Origin: an uncultured Actinomycetes bacterium
GTDB lineage: Bacteria; Actinomycetota; Coriobacteriia; Anaerosomatales; PHET01
Direction: 5' to 3'
Length of the DNA stretch: 64,000 bases
NCBI GenBank assembly: GCA_947085035.1
Contig: CAMTUW010000010.1
Location: forward strand, 2,356 to 66,355
Positions 14,003 through 54,961 of the stretch are shown piece after piece. The notes under the pieces are model-generated. The model did no database searches and was not told the origin of the DNA. It worked only from the letters and a program-made list of their open reading frames with translations. A program made the translations under genes and the position numbers. The first letter of the stretch is position 1. Each line of letters starts with the position of its first letter.

Positions 14003-15081
14003 CTGCGGTCCTTCCTGGTTTGCGCGACTGTGATGCCCAGATGACGACCGCACTGGGAGCACTCACCTGAATCGCCGAGCCCCACTGCGCGTGCCGAGAA
14101 ACCCCGTCGCTCGACCGCCAGTGCGTCACATGCGGGGCACCTGGTGTCCTCGCCGCCCACCACATCCACGTTTCCCAGATAGACGAAGCGCAACCCCTCC
14201 TCGATACCGATCGACCGCGCGCGCACGAGTGTCTCGAGCGGTGTCGGCGACAGGTGGGAGAACTCGAGACAGGGCGTGAACCTCGTCACGTGCCAAGGGG
14301 TCTCGGGGGAAAGCGATCGGGCGATCCACGAGGCGACGGCCCGGAGCTCCTCGTCGGAATCGTTCACGGTCGGAACAATGTTGGTCACGCACTCGACGTG
14401 CAGGCCGTGGGTGCGCAACGCGAGTTCTGCAGCGACGCGAACGGCCTCGGGATCGGACACGTGACACAGACGCTGGTAGGTCTCGTCGAAGAATCCTTTG
14501 ATGTCCGTGCGCCACACGTCGATCGCTTCCGCGAAGAGTTCGAGTCCGGCCGGGGTCACGTACCCGTTGGTCACCATGACGGTGTAGAGCCCTGCGGCCT
14601 TCGCCAGCCGAGCGCAGTCGAGCACGTACTCGAGCCAGATCACCGGTTCGTTGTACGTCCACGCAACGCCCTCGCACCCCTGATGAAGGGCCAGCGAGAC
14701 GACCTCGGATGGCTCCACGCGACGTAGAGCCGCGATCTGGGCTGCATCAGGATGAGAGATGCGCCAGTTCTGGCAGTGGCCGCACCTCATGGAGCAGCCG
14801 ACTCCGCCGACCGACAGAGCGCGTGAGCCCGGGCGGAAGTGGAAGACGGGCTTCTTCTCGATCGGGTCGGCCGCAATCGAGCTCACCAAGCCATAGGTGA
14901 GCGCTCTGAGGCTACCGCCGATGACGCCCCGCGCACCGCAGATTCCGCGGCCGCCTTCGGCTATCAAGCACGCGTTCGGACACAGACCGCAGCGAACACG
15001 CTCGTCTTCAAGCTTCCACAGCAGCGCGTCATGCACTGTACCCACCCTATCCCGAAGCCAGTTCCACGCGGTCACGCCCAT
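13999..15081 (-). CDS. radical SAM enzyme, AmmeMemoRadiSam / PFL-activase-like type
   Basis: ORF 13999..15306 trimmed to the ATG at 15081. Motifs: VRCGLCPNACLIAEGGRGICGARG, DPIEKKPVFHFRPGS, radical SAM CSMRCGHCQNW, and a C-terminal Cys pair (CPACD..CSQCG). The start overlaps the upstream GGDEF gene by 35 nt. Confidence 0.8.
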   Translation of the reverse strand: MGVTAWNWLRDRVGTVHDALLWKLEDERVRCGLCPNACLIAEGGRGICGARGVIGGSLRALTYGLVSSIAADPIEKKPVFHFRPGSRALSVGGVGCSMRCGHCQNWRISHPDAAQIAALRRVEPSEVVSLALHQGCEGVAWTYNEPVIWLEYVLDCARLAKAAGLYTVMVTNGYVTPAGLELFAEAIDVWRTDIKGFFDETYQRLCHVSDPEAVRVAAELALRTHGLHVECVTNIVPTVNDSDEELRAVASWIARSLSPETPWHVTRFTPCLEFSHLSPTPLETLVRARSIGIEEGLRFVYLGNVDVVGGEDTRCPACDALAVERRGFSARAVGLGDSGECSQCGRHLGITVAQTRKDRR

Positions 15082-29714: not shown

Positions 29715-29829
29715 GAAGCGCGTCGAGCGGGCCCGGACGCTCGGCAGAGGCCCCTTATGGCTGCTGCCTTCCGACCCTGACCAGGTTCGTGACATGCCGC
29801 CGTCCGAACCCGCTCGACGCGCTCCAGTA
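29715..29829 (-). ncRNA. ffs: signal recognition particle RNA (small 4.5S-type)
   Basis: Minus strand contains CCUGGUCAGGGUCGGAAGGCAGCAGCCAUAAGG, the domain IV/helix 8 consensus with GGAA. It is closed by a long terminal stem, GGAGCGCGUCGAGCGGG / CCCGCUCGACGCGCUUC. It sits in the conserved position upstream of dnaX. The ends are approximate (+/- 5 nt). Confidence 0.88.
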
Positions 29830-37706: not shown

Positions 37707-37796
37707 AAAACCGACCTGCTCTCCTTGGAGAGTCCTGGGTCGGTTTCACTATTAGCTCCCCGCTGACGAGATGAGTGACCAGTGTGCGGTCAGCGG
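37707..37796 (-). promoter_or_regulatory. structured leader of the surface-protein gene: hairpin plus terminator-like hairpin with U-tract
   Basis: Minus strand: CCGCUGAC(N21)GUCAGCGG at 37760..37796. Then AAACCGACC-CAGGACUCUCCAAGGAGAGCA-GGUCGGUUU at 37707..37746, with an inner CUCUCC/GGAGAG stem, followed by UUUUCGUCGUUCUUC. This sits about 70 nt before the RBS and ATG at 37625. Confidence 0.5.
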
Positions 37797-38026
37797 ATCA
37801 ATGCTTCCCATGGATTGAAGAAGATCCTGTATGGAAACGTGTCAACCGGCGCTCCGCCGTGTGAGATACGTCACAATTCGCACCTCACCCCATATTTACC
37901 CAATGAGCCGGTCTTAAACATCGCTCTTTCAGTGCTATTTCTTCACATCCTCACTTCACCCCTCACGAAGCGTCAGTTTCGCGCGCATAACGACGAACCG
38001 CCATGGCGATGCGTTAGCCATCCTCG

Positions 38027-41457: not shown

Positions 41458-43554
41458 GTGGCCGATGACGATGGAGACGCCTTGACCGGTCGAGAGCATC
41501 ACAGCATCGCGCGCCGTGGTTCGAGATGTACGTGGCTCGCAGCGCTCGTCCTCGCCGTCATGGTCTTCTCGGCGTCCCCGACGCCTGCCGAGCCTCGTCC
41601 GGGCGACAGTGTCGCCGGTGTCCCGACGGCGAGAGGGATGGCTGGCCCGGCGACGTTCGCGTTGCGCTCGGACTCTGTGTCGATCGCATCGGGCGAGGAG
41701 TTCGCCTTCACCGCCATCGCGCAAGTCCCCGAGGGGACCGACAGTGTGACGATGCGTTTCCAGCTCAAACACCCCACAGGCAAGCTGATCTTCCAGCGCA
41801 CTCGAATCGTGAACGAGCCAACGTCTCGCCGGGTCGAGGAACCCTTCTCACGCGAGACCGGCGACCTTTCGCTTCGACCGGGCCTCTACCCCGTGACCCT
41901 CGCTGCCAGCGCGCGTATCGACGGAACGGTGCACGAGACCGTCGTCGAGTCCTTCCTGCTGGTGTTCGATCCGGACGCGACCGCGGTTCCCGTCGTGTTC
42001 GTCGCCAGGATCAGCGGAGCCCCTCTCTCGGATTCCCAGGGCCGCTTCGTCTCCGATCCGGGCCGGTTCACCCGGACGCTCGACGAGGCCGGGAGCCTCG
42101 CTTCTTGGGTGATCGCGAATCCGTGGGCGAGGATCACCGTCGCGATCCCTCCGCTGCTTCTCGAGGAGTGGGTCCGCATCGCCGGCGGATTCGAGCTTGT
42201 CGGCCCCGAGGGCGTGGAAGACGTCTCGGCCGACTCTGCGGTCGCTCGTGAGTACGCCGCGACGCTCGGGCTGCTCACGGCGGCCATCGAGACCGGCAGG
42301 CTGGAACTCGCCGCGATCGGCTTCGCTGACCCCGACATCCGCGGCCTCGAGTCGGCGGGACTGACCGACGACCTCGTCGCGCACTACGAAAGCGGCCTGT
42401 CCTCCACGTTCGCCTCGCTCAAGACCTCTCCGTCGACCGGAACGGTCCCGGCTGGCGGGTGTCTGCCGGAGAAAGCGGCTCACGCGCTTGAAACGGCGGG
42501 AATCGGGTACGCGGTGGTCGACGCCGACTGCGTGCGCTCGAAGGAGACGTCCGTGGCGCCGTCATCGTACAGAGTGGTCGGCAGCGGAGTCGTGGCGCTC
42601 GTTTCCGATGCGGGCGTCTCGCAGGCGGTTGCCTCGGGGGATGCGGCTCTTCTCGTCGACAGCGCCTTTCGGCGTCTGCTGTCGGGAAGCACGGGGCCGC
42701 TCACGATCTCGGTCGTATTGGGGCCCGGATCCTCGGATGCCGCGAAGCTGATCGCGTGCGCCACATCCCTCGCGCCGCATCGTTGGGTATCGATGCGCAC
42801 CGGTCGCGAAGCCGCCTCTCGACCGAAACGCACGGTCAAGCTCGTGGAGAGAGGACCCAAGGGCTCGGCGCCCGATGGCTACTGGGCCGACGTCGCCGAC
42901 GCGCGTCGATGGGCGGGCGCTTTGCGAGCGGCGATCGGGGACGCGGCCGCCGAGACGGTGATAGCTGAGCGCAGTTCGCTCATCGCGGCCTCGTCGACGT
43001 GGGCGGGCGCCGACGATGGCTGGGTTCTCGCCGACAGAGGGCGCACGTTCGCCGACACCGCCACGAGATTGGGCCGCGAGGTACTCTCGAAGGTGACGGC
43101 CTCGGTCGAGCCGATCACACTTGCGGGTACCGCCGGGGACCTGCCGGTCACCATCAGCAACGATTCCGGGCGTGCGCTTGATGTTCGGATGGTGGCCCGA
43201 ACGAGCAAGGGTGTGACCGTCCAGGGCTCCGACTCGGTCACGATGACCCTCGACCCGCAGGACAACTTCGTGAAGATCCCCATCGCTTTGAGCAACGTGG
43301 TCGAAGGCGAGGTCCGTGTCGCCGTCCTCGCGGGCGCCGTCGAGCTGAGCTCGAAGACGGTCACCGTGCGTGCCTCGTACTTGGACAGAATCGCGCTTGT
43401 AGGGGGAATCGTCTTGATGATGATTGGAGTTCTCGTGTTCATCATCAGGAGAGTGCGTGCGCAAGAGGCCGCCATGGATGCCACGAGTTCCGGCGAGCGA
43501 TACACTGACCGGGACCGGCGCTCTTCAACCGTGACTGAGAAAGGCTTCCGATGA
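41458..43554 (+). CDS. large exported protein with C-terminal membrane anchor (function unknown)
   Basis: 698 aa, GTG start. N-terminal hydrophobic segment [20 protein letters not shown]-terminal [21 protein letters not shown]. Its position upstream of trxB-trxA recalls the actinobacterial Rv3909-type (DUF6049) neighbourhood; this is inference, not verified. Confidence 0.55.
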
Positions 43555-44681
43555 GCAAGGTCGTGATCCTCGACACAAACGTCTTACTCGCCGACCCCAA
43601 CGCGCTGTTGGGCTTCCCTCACGCCGACGTGGTGATTCCGGAGCCCGTGTTGGGAGAGCTCGACAAGCTCAAGACCGCGCGCGTGGACCCGGACCTTCGT
43701 TTTCGCGGGCGCGAGGTCAGCCGGATTCTCTTCGAGCTCTCGGAGGACGGATCCCTCATCGACGGCGTGGCCCTTCCCGACGGAGGAACCCTGCGCGTGG
43801 CGCCAATGCCCGAGAGCGCCGGGCTGCCGGATGGACTCTCGCTCAGGCAGACCGACGACAGGATCCTCGCTACCGCCTATCAGGTCTGCGCATCAAAGCC
43901 GGACTGCGAGGTCGTACTCGTGACGAACGACCTCAACATGCTTTTGAAAGCGCAGACGCTGGGAATCTCGGTGCACCGTCACGGCGAGGGCGTGGAAGGC
44001 GGCTTCGCGCGGCGCTACATCATCCGGCCCTTCCAGCGCTACAAGATACCGCTCGGGATCCTCGCCATCGCTGTCGCCGTGTTCGCCGCGATCGTGGTCA
44101 TCGTGATCACCACGCGCCCGCAGGCGGCCGACGTCGCCACCCTTCCTCCTGAGTTCAAGCAGCTGCTCTCCCCCGCCCAGCAGACGGCTTTCGACTCTCT
44201 CCTGATTCTGCGCAGCGCCCCCAACGACCCTGAAGCGCTGCTGTCGATGGGCAACTTCTACTACGGTCTGACCGAGCAGGCGCGCATCACCAACGACCCG
44301 GCCGGCCAGCTGCGGTGGGCACAGCCGGGGATTCGCTACTACCAGCGATACCTCACCGTCTCCCCCACCGACAACGACGCCCGCGCGGACTTCGCCACCG
44401 TCTTGTTCTACTCGGGACAGACCGACCGCGCGATCCAAGAGATCGGCAAAGTGCTCGAGAGCGATCCGAACCACGTGAACGCCAATTTCAACCTGGGCGT
44501 CATCACGCTGAACGGGCGAAAGGATCCGCAGGCCGCTCGCGAGCAGTTCGTGCAGGTGGTCAGACTCACTGCGAACAAGCCGGACCAGCACCTCATCAAA
44601 GAGCAGGCCCAGCACCTGATCGAACAGATCGACAAGGACCTCGCGGGGAGCCGCTCGTCAACCGAAGGAGTGGTGCAGTGA
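43551..44681 (+). CDS. PIN-domain protein with TM helix and C-terminal TPR repeats
   Basis: 376 aa. ATGA overlap with the upstream stop. PIN: VVILDTNVLLADP..TDDRILATAY..LVTNDLNMLLKA. TM: IPLGILAIAVAVFAAIVVIVI. TPR-like: ALLSMGNFYY..YYQRYL..ADFATVLFYSGQTDRAIQ. Confidence 0.7.
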   Translation: MSKVVILDTNVLLADPNALLGFPHADVVIPEPVLGELDKLKTARVDPDLRFRGREVSRILFELSEDGSLIDGVALPDGGTLRVAPMPESAGLPDGLSLRQTDDRILATAYQVCASKPDCEVVLVTNDLNMLLKAQTLGISVHRHGEGVEGGFARRYIIRPFQRYKIPLGILAIAVAVFAAIVVIVITTRPQAADVATLPPEFKQLLSPAQQTAFDSLLILRSAPNDPEALLSMGNFYYGLTEQARITNDPAGQLRWAQPGIRYYQRYLTVSPTDNDARADFATVLFYSGQTDRAIQEIGKVLESDPNHVNANFNLGVITLNGRKDPQAAREQFVQVVRLTANKPDQHLIKEQAQHLIEQIDKDLAGSRSSTEGVVQ

Positions 44682-45625
44682 CTCCCGAGGCCATTGACGT
44701 CGCGATCGTCGGAGGCGGCCCAGGAGGCCTCGCGGCAGCTCTCTACGCCGCGCGCGGTCGCGCCAAGACGGTCGTGTTCGAGCGGGGCATCCCCGGCGGG
44801 CAGATCATCACCACCGACCACGTCGAGAACTATCCGGGCTTCCCGGGCGGCCTTTCAGGAGCTGAGCTTGGCGACCTGATGACCAGGCAGGCCGAGGAGC
44901 ACGGCGCTGTCATCCGCACCTTCTCGCCCGTCGAGAAGGTGGTCCAGCAAGACAACGGCCGCTTCTTGCTCGAGTGCGAAGGCGAGCAGTTCGACGCTGC
45001 GACGGTGATCCTCGCCCCCGGCGCCATCCCCCGAAAGCTGGGAGTGCCCGGTGAGGCCCAGTTCACGGGCCGCGGCGTCTCCTGGTGCGCGACATGCGAC
45101 GGAGCCCTCTTCAGAGACAAGATCGTAGCAGTCGTTGGAGGAGGCGACGCGGCGGTCGAGGAGGCGATGTTCCTGACCAAGTTCGCGGCGCGCGTTCACC
45201 TCATCCACCGCCGAGACGAGTTGCGCGCGACCAAGTGTCTGCGGGAGCGATGTTTCGCCAACGAGAAGGTCGAGGTGCACTGGAATCGCACCGTGGCAGA
45301 GATCGTCGGCACCGACAGCAAGGTGACCGGCGTGCTGCTCGAATCGACCGTGGGTGAGTCCGTGAAGAGTCTCGCCCTCGACGGCGTCTTCATCTTCGTG
45401 GGAATCCATCCGGTCAACGAACTCGCCGAGGGACTGTGCGAACTCACCGAAACCGGGTACATCAAGGTGGACCACGACGGGCGCACGAACATTCCGGGCC
45501 TCTTCGCAGCCGGTGACGTCACCGATTCTGAGTTGAAGCAGGTAATAACCGCTGCGGCCAAAGGTGCCTCGGCGGCGTTTGAGGCAGTACGCTACATTGA
45601 CAGCGGCGAAGTATGTTCCATCTGA
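44678..45625 (+). CDS. trxB: thioredoxin-disulfide reductase
   Basis: The long ORF 44315.. trimmed to the GTG at 44678 (AAGGAG 7 nt upstream; GTGA overlap with the PIN-TPR stop). Motifs: DVAIVGGGPGGLAAA, the redox site CATCDG and GGGDAAVEEA. Confidence 0.92.
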   Translation: MTPEAIDVAIVGGGPGGLAAALYAARGRAKTVVFERGIPGGQIITTDHVENYPGFPGGLSGAELGDLMTRQAEEHGAVIRTFSPVEKVVQQDNGRFLLECEGEQFDAATVILAPGAIPRKLGVPGEAQFTGRGVSWCATCDGALFRDKIVAVVGGGDAAVEEAMFLTKFAARVHLIHRRDELRATKCLRERCFANEKVEVHWNRTVAEIVGTDSKVTGVLLESTVGESVKSLALDGVFIFVGIHPVNELAEGLCELTETGYIKVDHDGRTNIPGLFAAGDVTDSELKQVITAAAKGASAAFEAVRYIDSGEVCSI

Positions 45626-45650
45626 CGGCAGGAAACGAAAGGGGAATCTC

Positions 45651-45974
45651 ATGTCCGACCTGGTAACGGTCACCGACGCGAACTTCACAGATACCGTGGA
45701 GAAGAGCGGCAAGGCGTTCCTGCTCGATTTCTGGGCCCCATGGTGCGGCCCATGCCGCATGATGGAACCGGTCCTCAAAGAGATCGCAGCGGAAAACGAC
45801 ACGCTCACGGTCGGCAAGCTCAACGTCGATGAGAGCCCGATGGTCGCTCAGAAGTTCGAGATACTGTCGATTCCCACGCTACTCATCTTCAAGGACGGCA
45901 AGGTCGTCAAGAAGCTCGTGGGCGCGATGCCCAAGAAGCGACTTCTCGACGAGCTCGCCCCGTGGATGGGCTGA
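45651..45974 (+). CDS. trxA: thioredoxin
   Basis: ORF trimmed to the ATG at 45651. 107 aa with the WCGPC active site (FWAPWCGPCRMM). Confidence 0.93.
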   Translation: MSDLVTVTDANFTDTVEKSGKAFLLDFWAPWCGPCRMMEPVLKEIAAENDTLTVGKLNVDESPMVAQKFEILSIPTLLIFKDGKVVKKLVGAMPKKRLLDELAPWMG

Positions 45975-45978
45975 CGCC

Positions 45979-46230
45979 ATGTGTCAGAAGGGCGTCAACA
46001 CCGAGCAGATGCGGCTCATGATCTCTCAAGCCGGTGACGCGATCTCGATGGCTCAGCAGTGGCTCGAGCGCATCCACCACATGGCCGACCACGCGGACCT
46101 CACCGAATCGAGCAAGCACGTCGCGCAGGCATCGGTGATGCTTGGCGAGGCGCGCGCGAGACTCGAGACCGCATCCAACGACCTCGAGAACCGCGACGAG
46201 AACCCGAACGCGAGCGTCGAGCTCGTCTGA
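45979..46230 (+). CDS. small helical hypothetical protein (83 aa)
   Basis: The ATG lies 4 nt after the trxA stop. Predicted helical hairpin (MRLMISQAGDAISMAQQWLERIHHMADH..). I recognise no family, and no clear RBS. Confidence 0.3.
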   Translation: MCQKGVNTEQMRLMISQAGDAISMAQQWLERIHHMADHADLTESSKHVAQASVMLGEARARLETASNDLENRDENPNASVELV

Positions 46231-47922: not shown

Positions 47923-48735
47923 ATGCCAAGTTTCCACGAGGGCCTCTACGAGATCGGGCGACTGGACAGCTTCGCGATGACCGACACCCCGGTGCATCGT
48001 GTGGACCCGCGCGCCAAGGTGATCGCGACGTTCGTCTTCCTCGTTTGCGTGGTCTCGTTCGATAAGTACTCGGTCCTTGCGCTGCTGCCGTTCGTGCTCT
48101 TCCCCGTCGTGATGGGCAGTGAGGGCCGGGTGCCGCTCGCGTGGTTGGCCGGGCGATTGCTCACCGCCGCTCCCTTCGCGCTCATCGTGGGCGTTTTCAA
48201 CCCGCTCATCGACCGAGAGATCATGGTCACGCTCGGCTCGCTGGGCATCTCGGGCGGCTGGATCTCCTACACCTCGATCGTGCTGCGCTTCCTGCTCACG
48301 ACCGCGGCGGCTCTCACGCTTATCGCCACGACGAGCTTCAACGGGGTGTGCGCTGCGCTCTCGCGTCTGGGCGTCCCGGACGTGTTCTCGACGCAGTTGC
48401 TCTTCTTGTACCGCTACATCTTCGTTCTCGCCGAAGAAGCGCTCACCACGGCGCGTGCACGCGACCTGCGCTCTTTCGGCCGCCGTGGCCGCGGGATGCG
48501 CGTTTACGGCCAGCTGCTGGGCCACCTCCTGCTGCGCACCTATGCGCGGGCCGGACGCATCCACTCGGCCATGCTGTGTCGCGGGTTCGACGGACACGTT
48601 CGCGTGCGGCGCGCCTCGCGGTTCGGCGCGAGCGACGCCGCGTTCGTCTTGGGATGGAGCGCCGTCTTCGTCTTGTTCCGACTGGTGAACGTGCCCCTCG
48701 CGGTGGGCACGCTTGTGACGGGAGTACTCTCATGA
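47923..48735 (+). CDS. cbiQ: ECF transporter transmembrane (T) component CbiQ/NikQ
   Basis: 270 aa. Motifs: VHRVDPRAKVIATFVFLV.. and the conserved ARxxR region (TTARARDLRSFG). Confidence 0.82.
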   Translation: MPSFHEGLYEIGRLDSFAMTDTPVHRVDPRAKVIATFVFLVCVVSFDKYSVLALLPFVLFPVVMGSEGRVPLAWLAGRLLTAAPFALIVGVFNPLIDREIMVTLGSLGISGGWISYTSIVLRFLLTTAAALTLIATTSFNGVCAALSRLGVPDVFSTQLLFLYRYIFVLAEEALTTARARDLRSFGRRGRGMRVYGQLLGHLLLRTYARAGRIHSAMLCRGFDGHVRVRRASRFGASDAAFVLGWSAVFVLFRLVNVPLAVGTLVTGVLS

Positions 48736-49502
48736 CCCACCACCGCATCGACATCCAAGACCTCGAGTTCGCCTACCCTGACGGTACGCAGGCGCTCCGT
48801 GGAGTCTCGCTCGAGGTCACTCACGGCGAATCGATCGCCCTCGTCGGAGCCAACGGCGCCGGCAAGTCCACGCTCCTCTTGCACCTCGTGGGGCTGCACC
48901 ATCCCCAGACCGGCTGCGTCTCAATCGGCGAAGTGCCGGTCACCCACGACACGCTCGCGGATGTTCGAAAAAGCGTCGGGATGGTGTTCCAGGATCCCGA
49001 CGACCAGCTCTTCATGCCCACCGTGGAAGAAGACGTGGCGTTCGGCCCCGTCAACTTGGGGCTGCCCCCCGAGGTGATCGAGGAGCGCGTGACCGAGGCG
49101 CTCACCACCGTAGGCGCTCTGAAGCTCAGGGACCGGCCGCCGTACCGGCTCTCGGGTGGCGAGAAGCGAGCGGTGGCCATCGCGACGATCCTTGCGATGA
49201 GGCCCAACGTGCTTGTCATGGACGAGCCGTCCTCGAACCTCGACCCACGGGCGCGCCGCAGGCTGATAGAGCTGCTCTGCACCTTCGAGCACACGAAACT
49301 GATCGCGACGCACGACCTCGACCTGGCGCTGGAGCTGTGCGATCGCACAGTGGTGATGAAAGAGGGGCTCGTTCGTGCCGACGGTCCGACGGCCGAGATC
49401 TTCTCCGATGCGGCGCTTCTCGAAGAATGCGGGCTGGAACAGCCGCTCTCGATGCGTCCGTGCGGCGCATGTGGCTCGCGCGCTGGTATCATCCAGCCAT
49501 GA
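48732..49502 (+). CDS. cbiO: ECF transporter ATPase CbiO/NikO
   Basis: The long ORF trimmed to the ATG at 48732 (ATGA overlap with cbiQ). Walker A GANGAGKST, signature LSGGEKRAVAIA, Walker B VLVMDEP. Confidence 0.9.
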   Translation: MTHHRIDIQDLEFAYPDGTQALRGVSLEVTHGESIALVGANGAGKSTLLLHLVGLHHPQTGCVSIGEVPVTHDTLADVRKSVGMVFQDPDDQLFMPTVEEDVAFGPVNLGLPPEVIEERVTEALTTVGALKLRDRPPYRLSGGEKRAVAIATILAMRPNVLVMDEPSSNLDPRARRRLIELLCTFEHTKLIATHDLDLALELCDRTVVMKEGLVRADGPTAEIFSDAALLEECGLEQPLSMRPCGACGSRAGIIQP

Positions 49503-50158
49503 GCTCGAAACGCCGCATCGTACATGACTCGCACCGACGCTGTTCTGCGGACGGCGAGCACGCGACCACGGCTCCCTTCCTCTACGAATGCTCGGTGTGT
49601 CGCCACCTCTCAACCGACCAGAGGTTCGCGGCCGGCGACGAAGCCTGCCCTGCGTGCGGTGTGAAGGGCGTCGCTCGCAAGGCCGTGCCCGCCGATCACC
49701 TGCGCCGCTTCGATGAGCGAATCCGCCACTACCACACCCAAGACGAGCACGAGATCGTGGTCATCCTCGTCTCGACGTTCCTCGAGACGCTCTTCGAAGA
49801 CATCCTCGCGAGGATGATGGAGGCTGGCGGCGCCGAGACGAGAGTGATCGCGCTGGTTCTCGACACCGAACGCTCGGTGGGGATGCGACTGGGCAAGCTC
49901 TTCCCGACGCTGTCGGGTGTGTCTTTCGAGGGCCTGGCCGTCGAGCTCGGCTACAACGACTTCCCACGTCGCTGGCGCGACATGCGCTCAGCCCGAAACG
50001 CGTTCATCCACGGTGAATCCTTCACCGATCCGCGCACGACACTCGACGAACGCGCCGCGTGCGAGGCGATGAAGCTACTCGACCAGGCATACGCTCTGTT
50101 CGTGCTCATCAACAACCGCTTCGTGGCGACCGCAACCGCTCCCAAGAAGCGCAAGTAG
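49499..50158 (+). CDS. unknown protein: N-terminal CxxC..CxxC zinc ribbon + helical domain with an RNxxxH (HEPN-like) signature
   Basis: ORF 49337.. trimmed to the ATG at 49499 (ATGA overlap with the cbiO stop). 219 aa. Motifs: YECSVCRH..EACPACGV, a helical body, and WRDMRSARNAFIHG. It ends 8 nt before hypF. Confidence 0.6.
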   Translation: MSSKRRIVHDSHRRCSADGEHATTAPFLYECSVCRHLSTDQRFAAGDEACPACGVKGVARKAVPADHLRRFDERIRHYHTQDEHEIVVILVSTFLETLFEDILARMMEAGGAETRVIALVLDTERSVGMRLGKLFPTLSGVSFEGLAVELGYNDFPRRWRDMRSARNAFIHGESFTDPRTTLDERAACEAMKLLDQAYALFVLINNRFVATATAPKKRK

Positions 50159-50166
50159 GCGAACCG

Positions 50167-52551
50167 ATGCCGGTCAAAGCGTTGTCACTCCACATCACCG
50201 GCATCGTGCAGGGCGTGGGGTTTCGCCCGTTCGTCTACAACCTCGCCGTGGCCTGTGGCCTCACCGGTTGGGTGCTCAACGCGAGCGACGGCGTGCACTG
50301 CGTGGTGGAGGGACCACCCTCCACCGTCGACGCCTTCCCGGATGCGCTGTGCGGCAACGCTCCCCCGATGGCGGTGATAGAGCGCGTCGTCACCGAGGAA
50401 GTCGAGCCCGAGGGCTTCAGCGACTTCGGGATCCGCGCGAGCCAAGCGGAGGCGGGCGCGATGACGCTCGTGAGCCCGGATATCGCCACGTGCGCCCAGT
50501 GCGTGAGCGAGATGAGCGACTCCGACGACCGGCGGCACGACTACCCGTTCACGAACTGCACCAACTGCGGTCCTCGCTTCACGATCATCGCCGACGTTCC
50601 CTACGACCGACCAACCACGACGATGCGGGACTTCCCACTGTGCGCCGAGTGTCTCGCCGAGTACGAGGACCCCTCGAACCGCCGTTTCCACGCCCAGCCG
50701 AACGCCTGCTTCCGCTGTGGGCCTCGGCTGTACCTCAACATCGCCGACCACGCCTCCGTCACCAGCGAGGACTCTTGGCGATGGACGCCCGAATGCGAGG
50801 TGGCCCCCCGTCCGCACCGTGACCCCGAAGCCGAGCGCGCCCGGACCAACGCGATCCTCGATACGGTGGTCGAAGCGCTTGGCGAGGGTGCCATCGTGGC
50901 GATCAAGGGGCTCGGCGGATTCCATCTGGCCTGCGCCGCCGGAGACGTCGATGCGGTCGAGCGACTGCGCGCCCGCAAGCACCGCTGGGGCAAACCTCTC
51001 GCAGTGATGGTTCCCGACATCGAATCGGCCGCCGCGTACTGCGTGGTGGGCGAGGCCGAGGAGAAGCTGCTCACCGGGACCGTGCGGCCGATCGTCTTGC
51101 TGCGACGACGTGCTGACGCCAACCCCGCGCCTGCCGTGCCGCTCGCGTCCGGCGTCGCGGGCGGTCTGGCCGAGATCGGCGTCGTCTTGCCCTACACCCC
51201 GCTCCACCACCTGCTGCTTCAACGTTTCGGCGGCCCGCTCGTGATGACCAGCGGAAACCTCTCCGACGAGCCCATCGCGACCAACAACGCCGAGGCACTC
51301 ACACGGCTCGGCGACATCGCCGACCTCTTCGTGTTGCACGACCGCACCATCCGCAGCCGTTACGACGACAGCGTCGTGCGCGTGGTCGACGACCTCGTCG
51401 AGCCGGTCCGCCGAGCACGCGGCTTTGCTCCGCACCCCCTGACCCTGCCGTTTCACACCGACACCCACATCCTCGCGGTTGGACCGGAGCAGAAGAACAC
51501 GTTCACGCTGCTGAAGGGCGGCCACGCCTTCGTCTCACAGCACATCGGTGACCTCGAGAACGCCGAGACGCTCACGAGCTTCGAGGAGACGATCGCGTTG
51601 TACCAGCAGTTGTTCCGGGTCGAGCCGCACATCATCGCCCACGACCTGCACCCCGAGTACCTGTCCACGAAGTGGGCGCTCGAATCCGACCTGCCGAGAA
51701 TCGGCGTCCAGCACCACCACGCGCACGTCGCGAGTGTGACCGCCGAGCACGGCATCAGCGAGCGGGTGGTGGGCGTCGCCTTCGACGGAACCGGCTACGG
51801 AGAGGACGGACGGATCTGGGGCGGAGAGGTGTTGCTCGCCGACTGGGTCGGCTACGAGCGTGCCGCGCACCTGCGCTACGTGCCGATGCCGGGCGGCTCC
51901 GCTGCGGTGAAACGCCCCGCGCGCATGGCGATCGGCACGCTCGCGTCGCTCGGGCTGCTCGAGCACCCGGGCGCGGCGCCGTTGCGCTCCCGTCTCGTGG
52001 CGGGTGAGGAGCGGACACTTCTCGCGATGCTCGAACACGGGCTGAACTGCCCGCTCACGAGTTCGATGGGGCGCCTGTTCGACACCGTATCGGCGATCGT
52101 CGGCGTGGCTGACGACGCGCGCTACGAGGGCGAGGCCGCGATCCTGCTCGAGGCGTGCGTGGAGCCGGGTGAGACCGGCTCGTACGAATTCGGTTGGCTC
52201 GATGCGGCCGGGCCCGGCGAGCCCGCGATCATCGACTCGGCGCCGGTGCTCGTCTCCACGCTCGACGACGTGGCAGCCGGGCTGCCCCCCGGCGTGATCG
52301 CGGCCCGGTTCCACGAGGCCGTGGTACGGTGTATCATCCGCATTGGCGAGCGGTTCGCTTACGAGACCGGCACACGCTATGTCGCGCTGAGCGGCGGCGT
52401 GCTCATGAATCGCATCGTCTTGGGTAAGGCGCTCCGCGGACTTCGCGACGCCGGGCTCGAGCCATTGACGCACAAACACCTGCCTGTGAACGATGCTGCG
52501 GTGTCATTTGGTCAAGCGGTCGTCGCATGGGCGCGACGACACGACGCTTGA
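50167..52551 (+). CDS. hypF: [NiFe]-hydrogenase maturation carbamoyltransferase HypF
   Basis: Trimmed to the ATG at 50167. Acylphosphatase domain (HITGIVQGVGFRPFVY), four CxxC zinc-finger motifs (CAQC, CTNCGPRFTI, CAEC, CFRCGPR), and YrdC plus Kae1-like domains. Confidence 0.93.
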   Translation: MPVKALSLHITGIVQGVGFRPFVYNLAVACGLTGWVLNASDGVHCVVEGPPSTVDAFPDALCGNAPPMAVIERVVTEEVEPEGFSDFGIRASQAEAGAMTLVSPDIATCAQCVSEMSDSDDRRHDYPFTNCTNCGPRFTIIADVPYDRPTTTMRDFPLCAECLAEYEDPSNRRFHAQPNACFRCGPRLYLNIADHASVTSEDSWRWTPECEVAPRPHRDPEAERARTNAILDTVVEALGEGAIVAIKGLGGFHLACAAGDVDAVERLRARKHRWGKPLAVMVPDIESAAAYCVVGEAEEKLLTGTVRPIVLLRRRADANPAPAVPLASGVAGGLAEIGVVLPYTPLHHLLLQRFGGPLVMTSGNLSDEPIATNNAEALTRLGDIADLFVLHDRTIRSRYDDSVVRVVDDLVEPVRRARGFAPHPLTLPFHTDTHILAVGPEQKNTFTLLKGGHAFVSQHIGDLENAETLTSFEETIALYQQLFRVEPHIIAHDLHPEYLSTKWALESDLPRIGVQHHHAHVASVTAEHGISERVVGVAFDGTGYGEDGRIWGGEVLLADWVGYERAAHLRYVPMPGGSAAVKRPARMAIGTLASLGLLEHPGAAPLRSRLVAGEERTLLAMLEHGLNCPLTSSMGRLFDTVSAIVGVADDARYEGEAAILLEACVEPGETGSYEFGWLDAAGPGEPAIIDSAPVLVSTLDDVAAGLPPGVIAARFHEAVVRCIIRIGERFAYETGTRYVALSGGVLMNRIVLGKALRGLRDAGLEPLTHKHLPVNDAAVSFGQAVVAWARRHDA

Positions 52552-52598: not shown

Positions 52599-52847
52599 AT
52601 GTGTCTCGCAATCCCCGCTCGTGTGATTGAACTCCAGGACAACCACATGGCACAGGTCGACATCGTCGGAGTCTCGCGGGTCATCTCGCTTGACTTGGTG
52701 GAAAGCGCGAATCCCGGTGACTGGGTGCTCGTCCACGCCGGCTTCGCGATCCAGCTCATCGATGAGGAGTACGCCAAAGAGACGCTTGAGCTGCTGAAGA
52801 CCCTGCCGTTCTTCGATGAGGAGCCCCTACTGGCCGAAGGGGCGTAA
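52599..52847 (+). CDS. hypC: hydrogenase maturation chaperone HypC
   Basis: Trimmed to the ATG at 52599 (GAAGGAG upstream). 82 aa with the canonical N-terminus MCLAIPARV. Confidence 0.9.
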   Translation: MCLAIPARVIELQDNHMAQVDIVGVSRVISLDLVESANPGDWVLVHAGFAIQLIDEEYAKETLELLKTLPFFDEEPLLAEGA

Positions 52848-52850
52848 CAC

Positions 52851-53942
52851 GTGGACCTCTCAGCGTTTCGCGATCCCGGGATCGCACGCGGCCTCATCGA
52901 GGCCATCAACGCGACGAAGACCGGTCCCGTCAAGATCATGGAGGTCTGCGGCACGCATACCGTCGCTATCGCCAAGAACGGCCTGCGAGCCGTCATGCCT
53001 GAACGCGTCACTCTGCTCTCCGGCCCCGGTTGCCCCGTCTGCGTCACCGCGAACCGCGACATCGACACCGCGATCGAGCTCGCGCGGCGCCCCGAAGTCA
53101 TCATCACCACCTTCGGCGACATGATGAAGGTCCCGGGGAGCCACTCCTCGCTTTCGGCCGAGAAGGCCGACGGTCGCGACGTCCGGATCGTCTACTCGCC
53201 GCTCGATGCGCTTGCGCTCGCCGCGAAAGAGCCCACACGCGAGGTCGTCTTCGTCGCCGTGGGATTCGAGACGACAGCCCCGCTCATCGCCGCCGCCATC
53301 TTGCGCGCCGAGGAGCAGGGACTCAAGAACTTCAGCGTGTTCTGTGCCCACAAGACAGTGCCGATCGCGCTTGAGGCGCTGGTCAACGACCCCGAGGTCG
53401 AGATCGACGCGTTCATCCTGCCCGGTCACGTCTCGACGATCATCGGCACGGAACCCTACAAGATGCTCGCCGAGAAGTACGGCGTGCCGGGCGCGATCAC
53501 CGGCTTCGAGCCGGTCGACGTGCTCCAGGGTGTGCTGATGCTACTGCGACAGATCGAACAGGGCCGCGCCGAGATCGAGATCGCCTACCATCGCGGAGTG
53601 TTGCCGGAGGGAAACCCCACGGCCCGCGAGATGGTCGAGCGCGTCTTCGAGCCGATCGACGCCGACTGGCGCGGCATCGGCGTCATTCCCGGAACAGGGC
53701 TTGGTATCCGCGAGAAGTACGCCGCCTTCGACGCGGTCAAGCGGTTGCCGATCACCGTACCGGAGCCCACAGAGATCAAGGGATGTCAGTGCGGCGAAGT
53801 GCTGCGCGGCATCATCCTTCCGTTCCAGTGCAAGATCTTCGCGAAGGGCTGCACGCCCGAGCACCCCATAGGGCCTTGCATGGTCTCATCCGAAGGCAGC
53901 TGCGCGGCCTACTACCGATTCACCGACTACGGAAGGGCGTGA
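52851..53942 (+). CDS. hypD: hydrogenase maturation protein HypD
   Basis: 363 aa, GTG start. Motifs: MEVCGTHT, GPGCPVCV and FETT. C-terminal Cys cluster. Confidence 0.92.
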   Translation: MDLSAFRDPGIARGLIEAINATKTGPVKIMEVCGTHTVAIAKNGLRAVMPERVTLLSGPGCPVCVTANRDIDTAIELARRPEVIITTFGDMMKVPGSHSSLSAEKADGRDVRIVYSPLDALALAAKEPTREVVFVAVGFETTAPLIAAAILRAEEQGLKNFSVFCAHKTVPIALEALVNDPEVEIDAFILPGHVSTIIGTEPYKMLAEKYGVPGAITGFEPVDVLQGVLMLLRQIEQGRAEIEIAYHRGVLPEGNPTAREMVERVFEPIDADWRGIGVIPGTGLGIREKYAAFDAVKRLPITVPEPTEIKGCQCGEVLRGIILPFQCKIFAKGCTPEHPIGPCMVSSEGSCAAYYRFTDYGRA

Positions 53943-53950
53943 GCGCCTCT

Positions 53951-54961
53951 ATGCACTCTGACCGAATCCTGCTCGCACACGGCTCCGGTGGCACGATGAT
54001 GCGCAATCTGATCGACGAGGTGTTCGTCGTCGGTTTCGACGATGACGCCCTCTCGCGCCTCGACGACGCGGCCGCGCTCCCCTTCCCCGGCTCACGCCTC
54101 GCGTTTTCCACCGACACCTACGTCGTGCACCCGCTGTTCTTCCCGGGTGGCGACATCGGACGACTCGCCGTCTGCGGCACCGTCAACGACGTCGCGACCA
54201 GCGGAGCGACCCCGCTCTACCTCTCGGTGGGCTTCATCCTCGAGGAGGGTTTTCCCCTTGATGACCTGCGCCGCATCCTCGTCTCGATGCGCGATGCGGC
54301 CCGCGAAGCCGGAGTCCACATCGTCACCGGTGACACGAAGGTCGTCGAGAAGGGCAAGGGCGACGGCTGCTTCATCAACACCGCTGGCGTGGGCATCTTG
54401 CCCGAGGGCCTCGACCTGTCGGGCGCACATTGCCGTGCCGGCGATGTCGTGATCGTCTCCGGTACGCTGGGCGACCACGGCATCGCGATCGTGTCGACCC
54501 GCGAGGGGCTCGAGTTCTCGACCGATATCGAAAGCGATGCCGCACCGCTGAACGCGCTCGTCGCCGCGACGCTCGTCGCCGCACCGGACGCACGCTGCTT
54601 CCGCGATCCCACGCGTGGCGGGCTGGCCTCGACGCTCAACGAACTCGCCGCCTCATCAGGCGTCGGCATCACGGTCGACGAGACGCTCGTACCGGTGAAG
54701 CCGCAGGTCAGAGGCGCAAGCGAGATGCTCGGCTACGATGTCTTCCAGGTCGCCAACGAAGGCAAGATGGTCGCCGTCGTGCCCGCCGAGCAGGCCGAAG
54801 CCGCGCTTCTCGCGATGAAGGCCGCGCCTTATGGCGCAGACGCCGCGATCATCGGCGAGGTGACCGAGGGTCCGGCTGGTCGCGTGCACGTCAAGACCGC
54901 GTTCGGCGCCACCCGGGTGATGGACATGCTCGTGGGAGAGCAACTGCCGCGCATCTGCTGA
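53951..54961 (+). CDS. hypE: hydrogenase maturation protein HypE
   Basis: Trimmed to the ATG at 53951. 336 aa, PurM-like fold (LAHGSGG..), with the canonical C-terminus ..PRIC. Confidence 0.92.
   Translation: MHSDRILLAHGSGGTMMRNLIDEVFVVGFDDDALSRLDDAAALPFPGSRLAFSTDTYVVHPLFFPGGDIGRLAVCGTVNDVATSGATPLYLSVGFILEEGFPLDDLRRILVSMRDAAREAGVHIVTGDTKVVEKGKGDGCFINTAGVGILPEGLDLSGAHCRAGDVVIVSGTLGDHGIAIVSTREGLEFSTDIESDAAPLNALVAATLVAAPDARCFRDPTRGGLASTLNELAASSGVGITVDETLVPVKPQVRGASEMLGYDVFQVANEGKMVAVVPAEQAEAALLAMKAAPYGADAAIIGEVTEGPAGRVHVKTAFGATRVMDMLVGEQLPRIC

What the first reader, a model, noticed from the sequence alone, without database searches (positions are those of the whole stretch)
49499..50158. Unknown Zn-ribbon + HEPN-like protein translationally coupled between the Ni-transporter ATPase and hypF
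The 219-aa ORF starts in an ATGA overlap with the cbiO stop and ends 8 nt before hypF, so it is an integral member of the nikR-cbiQO-hypFCDE transcription unit.

Sequence features:
- An N-terminal four-Cys ribbon (CSVC..N19..CPAC).
- A helical domain ending in WRDMRSARNAFIHG. This contains an R-N-x-x-x-H (Rx4H) signature like the HEPN/DUF4145 superfamily, usually associated with RNases, toxins or defence.

It is not HypA: there is no MHE N-terminus and the ribbon is at the wrong end. It is not HypB: there is no GTPase motif. hypA and hypB are both absent from the window.

Either this is an undescribed nickel/hydrogenase-maturation accessory factor, or it is a selfish HEPN gene lodged in an operon.
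Basis: partly seen in the sequence, partly recalled or inferred. Interest (0 to 1): 0.6.

Follow-up and report, generated by a model that had tools for sequence, protein, structure and literature searches.

The report
Zinc-ribbon HEPN gene heading hypFCDE operon
A well-conserved 219-residue protein with a zinc ribbon and an RNase-type HEPN domain, whose distant relatives sit next to restriction enzymes, is the fixed first gene of the hydrogenase-maturation operon (hypFCDE) in one clade of Coriobacteriia; it is not a stray selfish gene, but what it does there is unknown.

Summary
The ORF is real (49499-50158, 219 aa): 4-nt ATGA overlap with the cbiO stop, 8 nt before hypF. It has a Cys4 zinc ribbon and a helical domain with the HEPN sequence hallmarks (invariant R166-N-x3-H171 at the end of one helix, conserved Glu96 in an earlier helix). 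Sub-threshold HEPN profile hits recur among its relatives; fold matches are not significant. No curated family matches it.

In about 115 loci its orthologue lies directly upstream of hypF (median gap 4 nt). A hypF-based scan that ignores the ORF found it in all 30 measured loci with HypF identity of 58% or more (plus one at 56%) and in none of about 44 more distant loci: one acquisition, then full retention. It evolves as slowly as HypC/HypF and is absent from plasmids and phages.

A -10 box (TANNNT, mostly TACAAT) lies 6-7 nt before its start codon in 104/118 loci. So it probably heads a leaderless X-hypFCDE mRNA, not the nik unit.

Distant full-length homologues (hhalign E 9e-45) sit behind MmeI/Eco57I-type restriction enzymes or in toxin-antitoxin/Abi contexts.

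Best reading: a defence-type HEPN RNase taken over by the hyp operon. Its role is inferred, not shown.

The parts
49499..50158 (+). CDS of protein X (219 aa plus stop): Zn ribbon plus HEPN-like domain
   Evidence: the same gene is called independently. 428 homologues. AF2 model pLDDT 89.6, pTM 0.85.
49487..49492 (+). -10 promoter hexamer TATCAT, with an extended TG at 49484-49485, lying 6 nt upstream of the X start codon and inside the last codons of cbiO. Implies a leaderless X-hypFCDE transcript.
   Evidence: TANNNT lies 6-7 nt upstream of the X start in 104/118 loci (TACAAT 74, TAGAAT 14, TATCAT 10), with an extended TG in 71. Controls upstream of other genes: hypF 4/163, hypC 2/94, hypD 1/90, hypE 1/78, cbiO 0/63. 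The generic sigma-70 scan did not flag it. That transcription is leaderless is inferred.
49502..49579 (+). Disordered N-terminal tail (residues 2-27), basic and His-rich, with H9, H12, C15 and H21
   Evidence: pLDDT 61-63. Mean pairwise identity 0.16. In 114 homologues the tail has His 9.0% versus 2.6% in the rest of the protein, and Lys 9.5% versus 2.1%.
49580..49687 (+). Cys4 zinc ribbon (residues 28-63); knuckles C31-x2-C34 (49589-49600) and C50-x2-C53 (49646-49657), separated by a 15-residue spacer
   Evidence: Cysteines invariant or nearly invariant. Sub-threshold Zn_ribbon_8 / FmdB hits. Beta strands at 28-30 and 61-63 in the model.
49688..50128 (+). HEPN-like helical domain (residues 64-210). 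Helices 66-80 and 84-109 are assigned as helix-1 and helix-2; three short helices at 114-149 form the insert; helix 155-171 is helix-3; helix 184-208 is helix-4.
   Evidence: secondary structure. The order of elements fits the HEPN description in PMC3710099. Foldseek best hits are the HEPN proteins 1wol, 5yjc and 2q00, but at E 0.6-2.6, which is not significant.
49784..49786 (+). Glu96, the conserved acidic residue of helix-2. E100, D101 and R105 are also invariant within the clade.
   Evidence: E96 is invariant in the clade and >=90% conserved across the superfamily.
49994..50011 (+). R166-N167-A-F-I-H171, an Rx4H motif with a polar residue after R, at the C-terminal end of helix 155-171
   Evidence: Sequence read directly. 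Invariant in 52 sequences. R, N and H are >=90% conserved across distant relatives. This is the most conserved block of the protein, with mean pairwise identity 0.77.
50167..52551 (+). hypF, always the next gene after X, 8 nt downstream here
   Evidence: Pfam Acylphosphatase + zf-HYPF + Sua5_yciO_yrdC + HypF_C + HypF_C_2. Gap from X stop to hypF start: median 4 nt in 114 loci, about 35 of them with a 4-nt overlap.
52599..54961 (+). hypC (52599-52847), hypD (52851-53942) and hypE (53951-54961): the rest of the operon
   Evidence: Pfam; gene calls; conserved order in the loci.
48732..49502 (+). cbiO (ECF/ABC ATPase of the Ni/Co transporter); its stop overlaps the X start (ATGA). This neighbour is variable across the clade.
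   Evidence: Upstream neighbour across loci: cbiO+ 55, cbiMN+ 14, other 26, nikR- 1.

Best explanation
X is a HEPN-type ribonuclease (or at least an RNA-binding protein) with an N-terminal Cys4 zinc ribbon. It descends from a family that accompanies MmeI/Eco57I-type restriction enzymes. It was captured once at the 5' end of the hypFCDE operon in an ancestor of an Anaerosomatales-containing clade of Coriobacteriia and has been retained ever since.

It is the first cistron of a leaderless X-hypFCDE mRNA and is translationally coupled to hypF, so it is made whenever the Fe(CN)2CO-assembly proteins are made.

By analogy with other HEPN enzymes, two HEPN domains would pair to form a metal-independent RNase site from R166/N167/H171 and E96. 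The zinc ribbon plus the basic, His-rich tail would act as the targeting or gating module.

The most likely role is post-transcriptional control linked to hydrogenase maturation. The simplest case is cleavage or binding of its own operon RNA, or of hydrogenase/nickel transcripts.

Shown: architecture, conservation, gene linkage, promoter motif, evolutionary history. Inferred: RNase activity, dimerisation, leaderless transcription, and any role in hydrogenase maturation.
For: HEPN hallmarks:
- The invariant R-N-x3-H sits at the end of helix 155-171, followed by a loop and a last helix. There is a conserved Glu in the long helix 84-109 and a helical insert between the two. This matches the definition in PMC3710099.
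- 11 of 40 family members hit Pfam HEPN_RiboL-PSP (best E 3e-5); others hit HEPN_Apea (6e-5), HepT, and PADLOC Csx1/Csm6/CARF_HEPN models.
- Foldseek's top hit is the HEPN protein 1wol.

Linkage to hyp:
- X-hypF adjacency holds in all of the GTDB-species loci that extend downstream of X (57 with a near-full-length HypF match) and in 34 metagenome loci.
- The X-to-hypF gap has a median of 4 nt in 114 loci.

Unbiased hypF-based scan: X is present in all 30 measured loci with HypF identity of 58% or more (plus one at 56%) and absent in about 44 loci at 57% or less.

Hyp-like evolutionary rate: mean pairwise identity X 0.62, HypC 0.61, HypF 0.66.

Own promoter: a TANNNT box 6-7 nt before the start codon in 104/118 loci, versus 0-2.5% for control genes.

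Not mobile: no hits on plasmids or phages.

Origin:
- Full-length homology to a diverse Zn-ribbon+HEPN family (hhalign probability 100%, E 9e-45).
- Its members lie directly behind MmeI/Eco57I-type enzymes in 4 of 6 looked-up cases, next to an AbiJ_NTD4 protein in one, and near HicB and nucleotidyltransferase genes.
Against: - No experiment and no RNA target.
- The HEPN assignment rests on a motif, helix order and sub-threshold profile hits. X itself matches no HEPN model, and the Foldseek E-values (0.6 and above) are not significant.
- The whole neighbourhood (PIN-TPR, trxB, trx, hyp, EamA, PGI) is syntenic in this clade. Adjacency to hypF is therefore partly a product of shared ancestry.
- Pairwise distances of X correlate less with the Hyp proteins (r 0.32-0.56) than the Hyp proteins do with each other (0.42-0.77).
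- HypF works without X in every other lineage.
- No known step of [NiFe] maturation needs an RNase.
Confidence: 0.4

Rival explanations
1. X is still an immune protein: a single-gene, RAZR-like abortive-infection RNase. Its zinc ribbon would sense a phage protein, and it would merely share a transcript with hypFCDE without serving hydrogenase maturation.
For: - It has the same two-domain layout as RAZR/PD-T7-4 (N-terminal Cys4 ribbon, linker, C-terminal HEPN RNase), which acts alone (PMC13017515).
- All informative contexts of the distant homologues are restriction-modification, Abi or toxin-antitoxin neighbourhoods.
- The catalytic motif is intact.
- The ribbon and tail are the fastest-evolving parts (0.50 and 0.16 identity versus 0.63-0.77 for the HEPN part), as expected for a sensor.
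Against: - Defence genes are typically patchy and mobile. X shows a single acquisition, presence in every sampled descendant, a fixed position, and Hyp-like sequence divergence.
- It is absent from plasmids and phages.
- No PADLOC model matches it.
- It is translationally coupled to hypF in about 110 loci.
- It has many clade-specific invariant residues in the helix-2/helix-3 insert, which is normally the least conserved part of HEPN domains.
Confidence: 0.22
2. X is a protein-level accessory factor of the maturation machinery. It would be a partner or scaffold of HypF (or of the Ni-delivery step) that uses the HEPN fold for nucleotide or protein binding rather than RNA cleavage, and the Cys4 site or His-rich tail for metal handling.
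For: - The X-hypF adjacency is never broken, with 4-nt overlaps, which suggests fixed co-production.
- The clade-specific invariant surface lies in the insert region.
- The N-terminal tail is His-enriched (9.0% versus 2.6%), with an H..C....H pattern in the window's subclade.
- In outgroup loci hypA-hypB or hypB occupy the slot directly upstream of hypF.
- Some metagenome ORFs read as X-HypF fusions.
- Non-catalytic, nucleotide-binding HEPN domains exist (PMC3710099).
Against: - Non-catalytic HEPN domains usually lose the R/H motif, whereas here it is invariant.
- Cultivated Anaerosomatales are reported to encode HypABCDEF (PMC9686372), so HypA/B are probably present elsewhere and need no replacement.
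- The His-rich tail is poorly conserved (13 of 114 tails have no His).
- The fusions may be frameshift artefacts.
- There is no detectable similarity to HypA beyond a generic ribbon.
Confidence: 0.2
3. X is a selfish toxin gene lodged in the operon and kept by addiction rather than by benefit to the host.
For: HEPN toxins are common in toxin-antitoxin modules. One distant relative lies near HicB-like and nucleotidyltransferase genes.
Against: - There is no adjacent antitoxin or nucleotidyltransferase partner in any of about 115 loci.
- There is no sign of mobility, duplication or patchy loss.
- Conservation over a clade whose HypF proteins have diverged to about 58% identity is at the level of housekeeping partners.
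Confidence: 0.04

Closest known systems
RAZR / PD-T7-4 (ring-activated zinc-finger RNase; PMC13017515)
   Same: Size of about 200-220 aa. N-terminal Cys4 zinc ribbon, conserved linker, and a C-terminal HEPN-type domain with catalytic Arg and His. A single polypeptide without a partner gene.
   Different: - There is no detectable sequence relationship: no PADLOC hit for X or its 39 relatives to PD-T7-4 models, and no PDB sequence hit.
- No RAZR entry appears among the 50 Foldseek PDB hits shown for either model.
- RAZR's HEPN is DUF4145 with R146...H154 spacing (as the paper reports); X has Rx4H.
- RAZR is a mobile defence gene, whereas X is fixed in a housekeeping operon.
Restriction-modification-associated HEPN proteins (DUF4145-like and related families in PMC3710099)
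   Same: The distant full-length homologues of X (about 25% identity; hhalign E 9e-45) lie directly downstream of MmeI/Eco57I-type enzymes. This is the kind of context described for DUF4145, which is also listed as fused to zinc ribbons.
   Different: Neither X nor these relatives match Pfam DUF4145. The X clade has left the restriction-modification context entirely.
Pfam HEPN_RiboL-PSP (PF18735) and HEPN_Apea (PF18739)
   Same: These are the best profile matches to the helical domain among family members: 11/40 for RiboL-PSP (best E 3e-5) and one for Apea (E 6e-5).
   Different: All hits are below the curated thresholds, and X itself does not hit them at E<=1.
HypA (Ni metallochaperone of [NiFe]-hydrogenase maturation)
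   Same: A small protein of hyp clusters with a CxxC...CxxC zinc site. In outgroup loci hypA-hypB lie in the slot directly upstream of hypF.
   Different: - There is no N-terminal MHE nickel site.
- The ribbon is N-terminal and followed by a 150-residue helical domain.
- X does not match Pfam HypA; the weak HypA hits in 6 relatives (best E 0.003) are generic ribbon matches.
- Cultivated members of the order are reported to have HypA and HypB elsewhere.
HepT/MNT-HEPN type II toxin-antitoxin toxins
   Same: Rx4H HEPN active-site motif, with dimeric RNases as the mechanistic model.
   Different: No MNT partner gene, an added zinc ribbon, no mobility, and a much larger insert between helices 2 and 3.

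Membership tests
HEPN superfamily | Rx4-6H motif with a polar residue (N/H/D) right after the Arg | tested here: met
   R166-N167-A-F-I-H171 is invariant in 52 sequences. R, N and H are >=90% conserved in distant relatives. The feature is defined in PMC3710099.
HEPN superfamily | [quoted passage not shown] | tested here: met
   In the AF2 model (pLDDT 89.6) helix 155-171 ends at H171, followed by loop 172-183 and helix 184-208. Long helix 84-109 precedes a three-helix insert at 114-149. Judged from the order of secondary-structure elements only; coordinates were not inspected.
HEPN superfamily | Second conserved acidic residue in helix-2 (often Ex3[KR]) | tested here: met
   E96 is invariant in the clade and >=90% conserved across the superfamily. 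D101-x3-R105 is invariant in the clade.
HEPN superfamily | Significant profile or fold match to an established HEPN family | tested here: inconclusive
   X itself has no HEPN hit in Pfam, NCBIfam or PADLOC. Relatives give recurrent sub-threshold hits (RiboL-PSP 11/40, best 3e-5; Apea 6e-5; Csx1/Csm6 1e-4). Foldseek top hits include the HEPN proteins 1wol, 5yjc, 2q00 and 8xeh, but at E 0.6-6.
HEPN superfamily | Metal-independent RNase activity from a dimeric composite site | not testable with these tools
   Needs purified protein; no multimer prediction was available.
RAZR / PD-T7-4 | N-terminal Cys4 zinc ribbon followed by a C-terminal HEPN domain in one ~200-aa protein | tested here: met
   architecture as described in PMC13017515.
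RAZR / PD-T7-4 | Sequence membership (DUF4145 domain / PADLOC PD-T7-4 model) | tested here: not met
   X has 0 PADLOC families at E<=10. None of the 40 relatives hits such a model. No DUF4145 hit in Pfam. No PDB sequence hit.
RAZR / PD-T7-4 | Anti-phage function triggered by phage ring proteins | not testable with these tools
   Needs phage challenge assays.
HypA | N-terminal Met-His-Glu nickel site and match to the HypA profile | tested here: not met
   The N-terminus is MSSKRR. There is no PF01155 hit for X at E<=1.
HypB | G3E P-loop GTPase domain | tested here: not met
   No P-loop family hit. An E. coli HypB probe (written from memory) finds HypB only in outgroup loci.
hyp operon component (operational definition) | Conserved co-directional adjacency and co-transcription with hypFCDE across species | tested here: met
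   Adjacency in about 115 loci with gaps mostly <=22 nt. A shared promoter upstream of X is inferred from the -10 box. Transcription itself was not tested.
hyp operon component (operational definition) | Requirement for hydrogenase maturation | not testable with these tools
   Needs a deletion mutant and hydrogenase assays.
HEPN-MNT toxin-antitoxin | Adjacent minimal nucleotidyltransferase antitoxin gene | tested here: not met
   The neighbours are cbiO/cbiMN/other upstream and hypF downstream in all loci.

The most novel reading that the evidence does not exclude
X is a seventh, lineage-specific hydrogenase-maturation factor. It would be a gated HEPN RNase whose Cys4 ribbon and His-rich tail sense nickel (or redox state, given the conserved trxB-trx neighbours). 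It would couple that signal to the stability or translation of hyp/hydrogenase/nickel-transport mRNAs, making it the first RNase wired into [NiFe]-hydrogenase biogenesis and a clear case of a defence enzyme converted into a metabolic regulator.
Probability: 0.13. Interest if true: 0.75.

Novelty: new variant of a known kind. Interest (0 to 1): 0.55.

Why it matters
Zinc-ribbon+HEPN proteins are known as phage-defence or toxin RNases. Here a branch of such a family has been fixed for a long evolutionary span as the leading, translationally coupled gene of the hypFCDE operon in a clade of subsurface, H2-using Coriobacteriia.

If the link is functional, it adds an unexpected RNA-level (or otherwise new) component to [NiFe]-hydrogenase maturation, a pathway thought to be fully enumerated (HypA-F plus a few lineage-specific helpers). 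It would also give a datable example of a defence enzyme being taken over for housekeeping.

It is testable. Two members of the order are in culture and grow on H2 (PMC9686372), though whether they carry the gene still needs checking.

The result also corrects the operon picture: hyp expression in these genomes is probably driven by a leaderless promoter at the X start codon, not only by the NikR-controlled nickel-transporter promoter.

Tried and rejected
- **Curated families.** Pfam, NCBIfam and PADLOC scans of X gave only sub-threshold zinc-ribbon hits. PHROGs was not scanned.
- **PDB sequence searches** with X and with two profiles gave only ribbon-level or spurious hits, e.g. BceA at E 0.08.
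- **Foldseek** of two good models (X and the distant homologue P0147) against PDB, and of the X model against BFVD, had HEPN proteins near the top but no significant E-value. Fold evidence is therefore treated as weak.
- **Membership of RAZR or DUF4145** was rejected on sequence.
The literature says cultivated Anaerosomatales have HypABCDEF, so this reading was down-weighted. The paper's supplement held no gene table.
- **Fetching many distant-family loci from metagenomes** failed because the alignments were too diverse for the pattern search. Six contexts were obtained one by one instead.
- **Names for homologues:** all are 'hypothetical', or misnamed as rubredoxin/L32/L37AE because of the ribbon.
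- **Literature:** no paper holds both the terms hypF and HEPN.
- **Regulatory scans:** Rfam found no riboswitch or leader near the operon. The generic sigma-70 and terminator scan found nothing useful.
- **A cryptic, diverged X upstream of hypF in the nearest X-less loci** was looked for and not found.
- **dN/dS** was not computed because synonymous sites are saturated at these divergences.
Full report
**1.

- The ORF runs from the ATG at 49499 to the TAG at 50156-50158 (219 codons). Its ATG shares three bases with the cbiO stop (ATGA, 49499-49502), and the hypF ATG at 50167 follows after 8 nt.
- Codon-position GC (0.64/0.46/0.82) is that of a real gene in this 64% GC window.
- An independent gene caller on three metagenome contigs predicts exactly the same product.
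- Pfam confirms the neighbours: divergent cbiM-PDGLE, then nikR, cbiQ, cbiO, X, hypF, hypC, hypD, hypE.
- Two details of the finding need correcting. The spacer between C31-x2-C34 and C50-x2-C53 is 15 residues, not 19. The WRDMRSARNAFIHG block is not the end of the helical domain, because a loop and a 25-residue helix follow.
- No hypA, hypB or [NiFe]-hydrogenase structural gene was found in the window. This rests on Pfam scans of about 38 ORFs and on tblastn probes that did detect hypA/hypB in outgroup loci.

**2. What the protein is**

- No curated family claims it. Pfam, NCBIfam and PADLOC give only sub-threshold zinc-ribbon hits, and PDB sequences give nothing.
- It nevertheless has 428 homologues at E<=1e-3, all unnamed or misnamed after the ribbon.
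- In an alignment of 52 of them, 39 columns are invariant. These include three of the four Cys (the fourth is nearly invariant), E96, E100, D101, R105, D122, R125, W159, R163 and R166-N167-x-F-I-H171.
- AlphaFold2 gives a confident model (pLDDT 89.6, pTM 0.85). It shows a disordered tail (1-27), a small ribbon (28-63) and seven helices (66-208).
- Read against the published definition of the HEPN domain, the order of elements fits. That definition is a four-helix up-down bundle, an insert between helices 2 and 3, Rx4-6H at the end of helix-3 running into the loop to helix-4, a polar residue after the Arg, and an acidic residue in helix-2 (PMC3710099).
  - Helix 84-109 carries E96.
  - Residues 114-149 form a three-helix insert.
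  - Helix 155-171 ends in RNAFIH.
  - Helix 184-208 closes the bundle.
- Profile evidence is indirect but consistent.
  - An exhaustive profile search found 355 relatives, many at only about 25% identity, with the same ribbon+helical layout.
  - Of 40 members scanned, 11 hit Pfam HEPN_RiboL-PSP (best E 3e-5). Others hit HEPN_Apea (6e-5), HepT, and PADLOC Csx1/Csm6/CARF-HEPN models.
  - All of these hits are below curated thresholds.
- Foldseek places HEPN structures (1wol, Csm6 5yjc, 2q00/2jpu, 8xeh) among the best matches for two independent models, but at E 0.6 or worse. I count the fold evidence as weak.
- Overall, HEPN is the best-supported assignment, but its formal significance is inconclusive.

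**3. Where it lives**

- A scan of one genome per GTDB species found 106 stretches encoding a relative; 80 loci were fetched. These come from Coriobacteriia, Anaerosomatales, 'Actinomycetota' MAGs and a few evidently mislabelled bins.
- In every locus that extends downstream, X is followed on the same strand by hypF-hypC-hypD-hypE.
- The upstream neighbour varies: cbiO on the same strand (55 loci), cbiMN with a divergent nikR-cbiQ-cbiO (14), or unrelated genes (26).
- The wider region is syntenic in the clade (unknown large protein, PIN-TPR, trxB, trx, an 83-aa protein, [nik], X, hypFCDE, EamA, PGI). Adjacency alone could therefore reflect shared ancestry.
- Three further results make the hyp link stronger than plain synteny:
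  - The gap from the X stop to the hypF start has a median of 4 nt in 114 loci. About 35 have a 4-nt overlap and nearly all are 22 nt or less.
  - A scan that ignores X, using the first 300 residues of HypF against metagenome contigs, returned 80 hypF loci at 39-76% identity. X is directly upstream in all 30 measured loci at 58% or more, in one at 56%, and in four more loci with truncated hypF. It is absent from about 44 assessable loci at 57% or less. The nearest X-less loci have unrelated divergent genes upstream and no decayed copy. This is the signature of one acquisition followed by complete retention.
  - X diverges at the pace of its partners: mean pairwise identity 0.62, against 0.61 for HypC, 0.66 for HypF, 0.74 for HypD and 0.79 for HypE. 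The RNxxxH helix is its most conserved block at 0.77.
- X has no relatives on 72,556 plasmids or 50,697 phage genomes.

**4. A promoter at the start codon**

- Aligning the DNA upstream of X in loci without nik genes showed a recurring TGnTACAAT a few bases before the start.
- Counted over all loci, a TANNNT hexamer lies 6-7 nt upstream of the X start codon in 104 of 118 loci (TACAAT 74, TAGAAT 14, TATCAT 10). Of these, 71 have an extended TG.
- The same test upstream of hypF, hypC, hypD, hypE and cbiO scores 0-2.5%.
- In the window the element is TGGTATCAT (49484-49492), inside the last codons of cbiO, with ATG at 49499.
- From general knowledge of actinobacterial promoters (not checked here), a -10 box whose last T lies 6-7 nt from an A/G start codon is the usual layout of leaderless mRNAs.
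- I therefore infer that X is the first cistron of a leaderless X-hypFCDE transcript. The ATGA overlap with cbiO is a local arrangement rather than the defining coupling. Read-through from the nik promoter is not excluded. Transcription itself has not been measured.
- In the two nearest X-less loci, hypF itself is preceded by TGnGAnAAT plus 6 nt. This hints that X was inserted between an older leaderless promoter and hypF.

**5. Where it came from**

- The X clade aligns over its full length with a diverse set of 190-290-aa ribbon+HEPN proteins (hhalign probability 100%, E 9e-45, 198 columns).
- Six of these could be placed on contigs:
  - Four lie directly downstream of MmeI/Eco57I-type restriction-modification enzymes.
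  - One lies two genes upstream of an AbiJ_NTD4 protein.
  - One lies after groES-groEL.
  - One of the restriction-linked loci also carries HicB-like and nucleotidyltransferase genes.
  - None is near hyp or nickel genes.
- The superfamily therefore behaves like the restriction-linked HEPN proteins described in PMC3710099. The hyp-linked clade is a single, tight offshoot.

**6. How it most likely works**

- *Best explanation (about 0.4).* X is a defence-derived HEPN RNase now working with the hyp operon.
  - Two HEPN domains would form the composite site (R166, N167, H171, E96).
  - The ribbon and the basic, His-rich tail (His 9.0% versus 2.6% in the rest) would target or gate it.
  - Being first on the leaderless mRNA and coupled to hypF, it is made together with the Fe(CN)2CO-assembly proteins.
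  - It plausibly acts on RNA connected with hydrogenase maturation.
  - Only the anatomy, linkage and history are shown; activity and role are inferred.
- *Rival 1: still a RAZR-like immune sensor RNase that merely shares the transcript (0.22).* The architecture and family contexts favour it. The fixed position, complete retention and slow evolution argue against it.
- *Rival 2: a protein-level partner of HypF or of nickel delivery (0.2).* It is favoured by the tight coupling, the strongly conserved insert surface, the His-rich tail, the fact that hypA-hypB occupy this slot in outgroups, and possible X-HypF fusions. Against it are the intact catalytic motif and the report that cultivated Anaerosomatales encode HypABCDEF (PMC9686372).
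- *Rival 3: a selfish addiction toxin (0.04).* It lacks a partner gene and shows no mobility.
- The remaining probability covers roles not considered here.

**7. Comparison with known systems**

- X works most like RAZR/PD-T7-4 in layout (Cys4 ribbon + linker + HEPN RNase, acting alone). It fails membership on sequence: no DUF4145, PADLOC or PDB match.
- It meets the sequence and helix-order hallmarks of the HEPN superfamily, without a significant profile or fold match of its own.
- It is not HypA (no MHE site, no profile match) and not HypB (no GTPase domain).
- I rate it a new variant of a known kind: a new, unannotated HEPN family in a context not previously described for HEPN proteins. A search for papers holding both 'hypF' and 'HEPN' returned none.

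**8. Verdict**

- The finding is real and more interesting than a stray ORF, but its function is open.
The 'selfish gene' option is now unlikely, and the gene belongs to the hyp unit rather than the nik unit.
- Interest 0.55. It is a clean, testable case of a defence-type enzyme fixed in a metallo-enzyme maturation operon, with cultivable relatives available, but with no mechanism demonstrated.

Noticed in passing
window 15047-16867 (-): A 606-aa protein that combines a 4Fe-4S dicluster domain, an [FeFe]-hydrogenase large-subunit-like domain (Fe_hyd_lg_C, E 2e-28), a putative Fe-S motif and a C-terminal GGDEF diguanylate cyclase. It looks like a sensory-hydrogenase-type domain wired to c-di-GMP synthesis.
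   Followed up: no
window 37730-37817 (-), upstream of the ORF at 32886-37625 (-): A c-di-GMP-II riboswitch (RF01786, 54.7 bits, just above the gathering score) lies about 100 nt upstream of a 1579-aa repeat-rich surface protein (DUF7507 x8, DUF11, CARDB). Together with the GGDEF and HD-GYP-type (HD_5) proteins nearby, the window is rich in c-di-GMP signalling.
   Followed up: no
window 41458-46230 (+) and loci L001-L080: A conserved synteny block lies upstream of X across the clade: an unknown 640-700-aa protein with no Pfam match, a PIN_4+TPR protein (43551-44681), thioredoxin reductase, thioredoxin, and an 83-aa unknown protein.
   Followed up: partly
L116 and L117, about 15 nt upstream of hypF (locus position ~4001 / ~3948): In the nearest hypF loci that lack X (HypF 56-57% identical), hypF itself is preceded by TGAGACAAT or TGAGAGAAT plus 6 nt and the start codon. 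hypF may be leaderless there, and X may have been inserted between that promoter and hypF.
   Followed up: partly
proteins P0140, P0137, P0148 (metagenome representatives): These predicted ORFs join an X segment to an N-terminal HypF segment. For example, P0140 has X residues 102-210, a 12-residue link, then HypF residues 2-84. They could be true fusions or frameshift artefacts; their contigs could not be fetched.
   Followed up: partly
L163 (2956-3946), L166 (2048-2725), L167 (27-416): In distant hypF loci, hypA-hypB or hypB sit directly upstream of hypF, the position that X occupies in the clade.
   Followed up: no
window 49502-49579 (+) and homologues P0001-P0037: The disordered N-terminal tail of X is His- and Lys-rich. 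In the window's subclade it carries a loose H-x2-3-C-x3-6-H pattern, a possible metal-binding or RNA-binding tail.
   Followed up: partly
window 29721-29816 (-): Bacterial small SRP RNA (RF00169, 61.4 bits), next to dnaX and ybaB-type genes. An ordinary feature.
   Followed up: no
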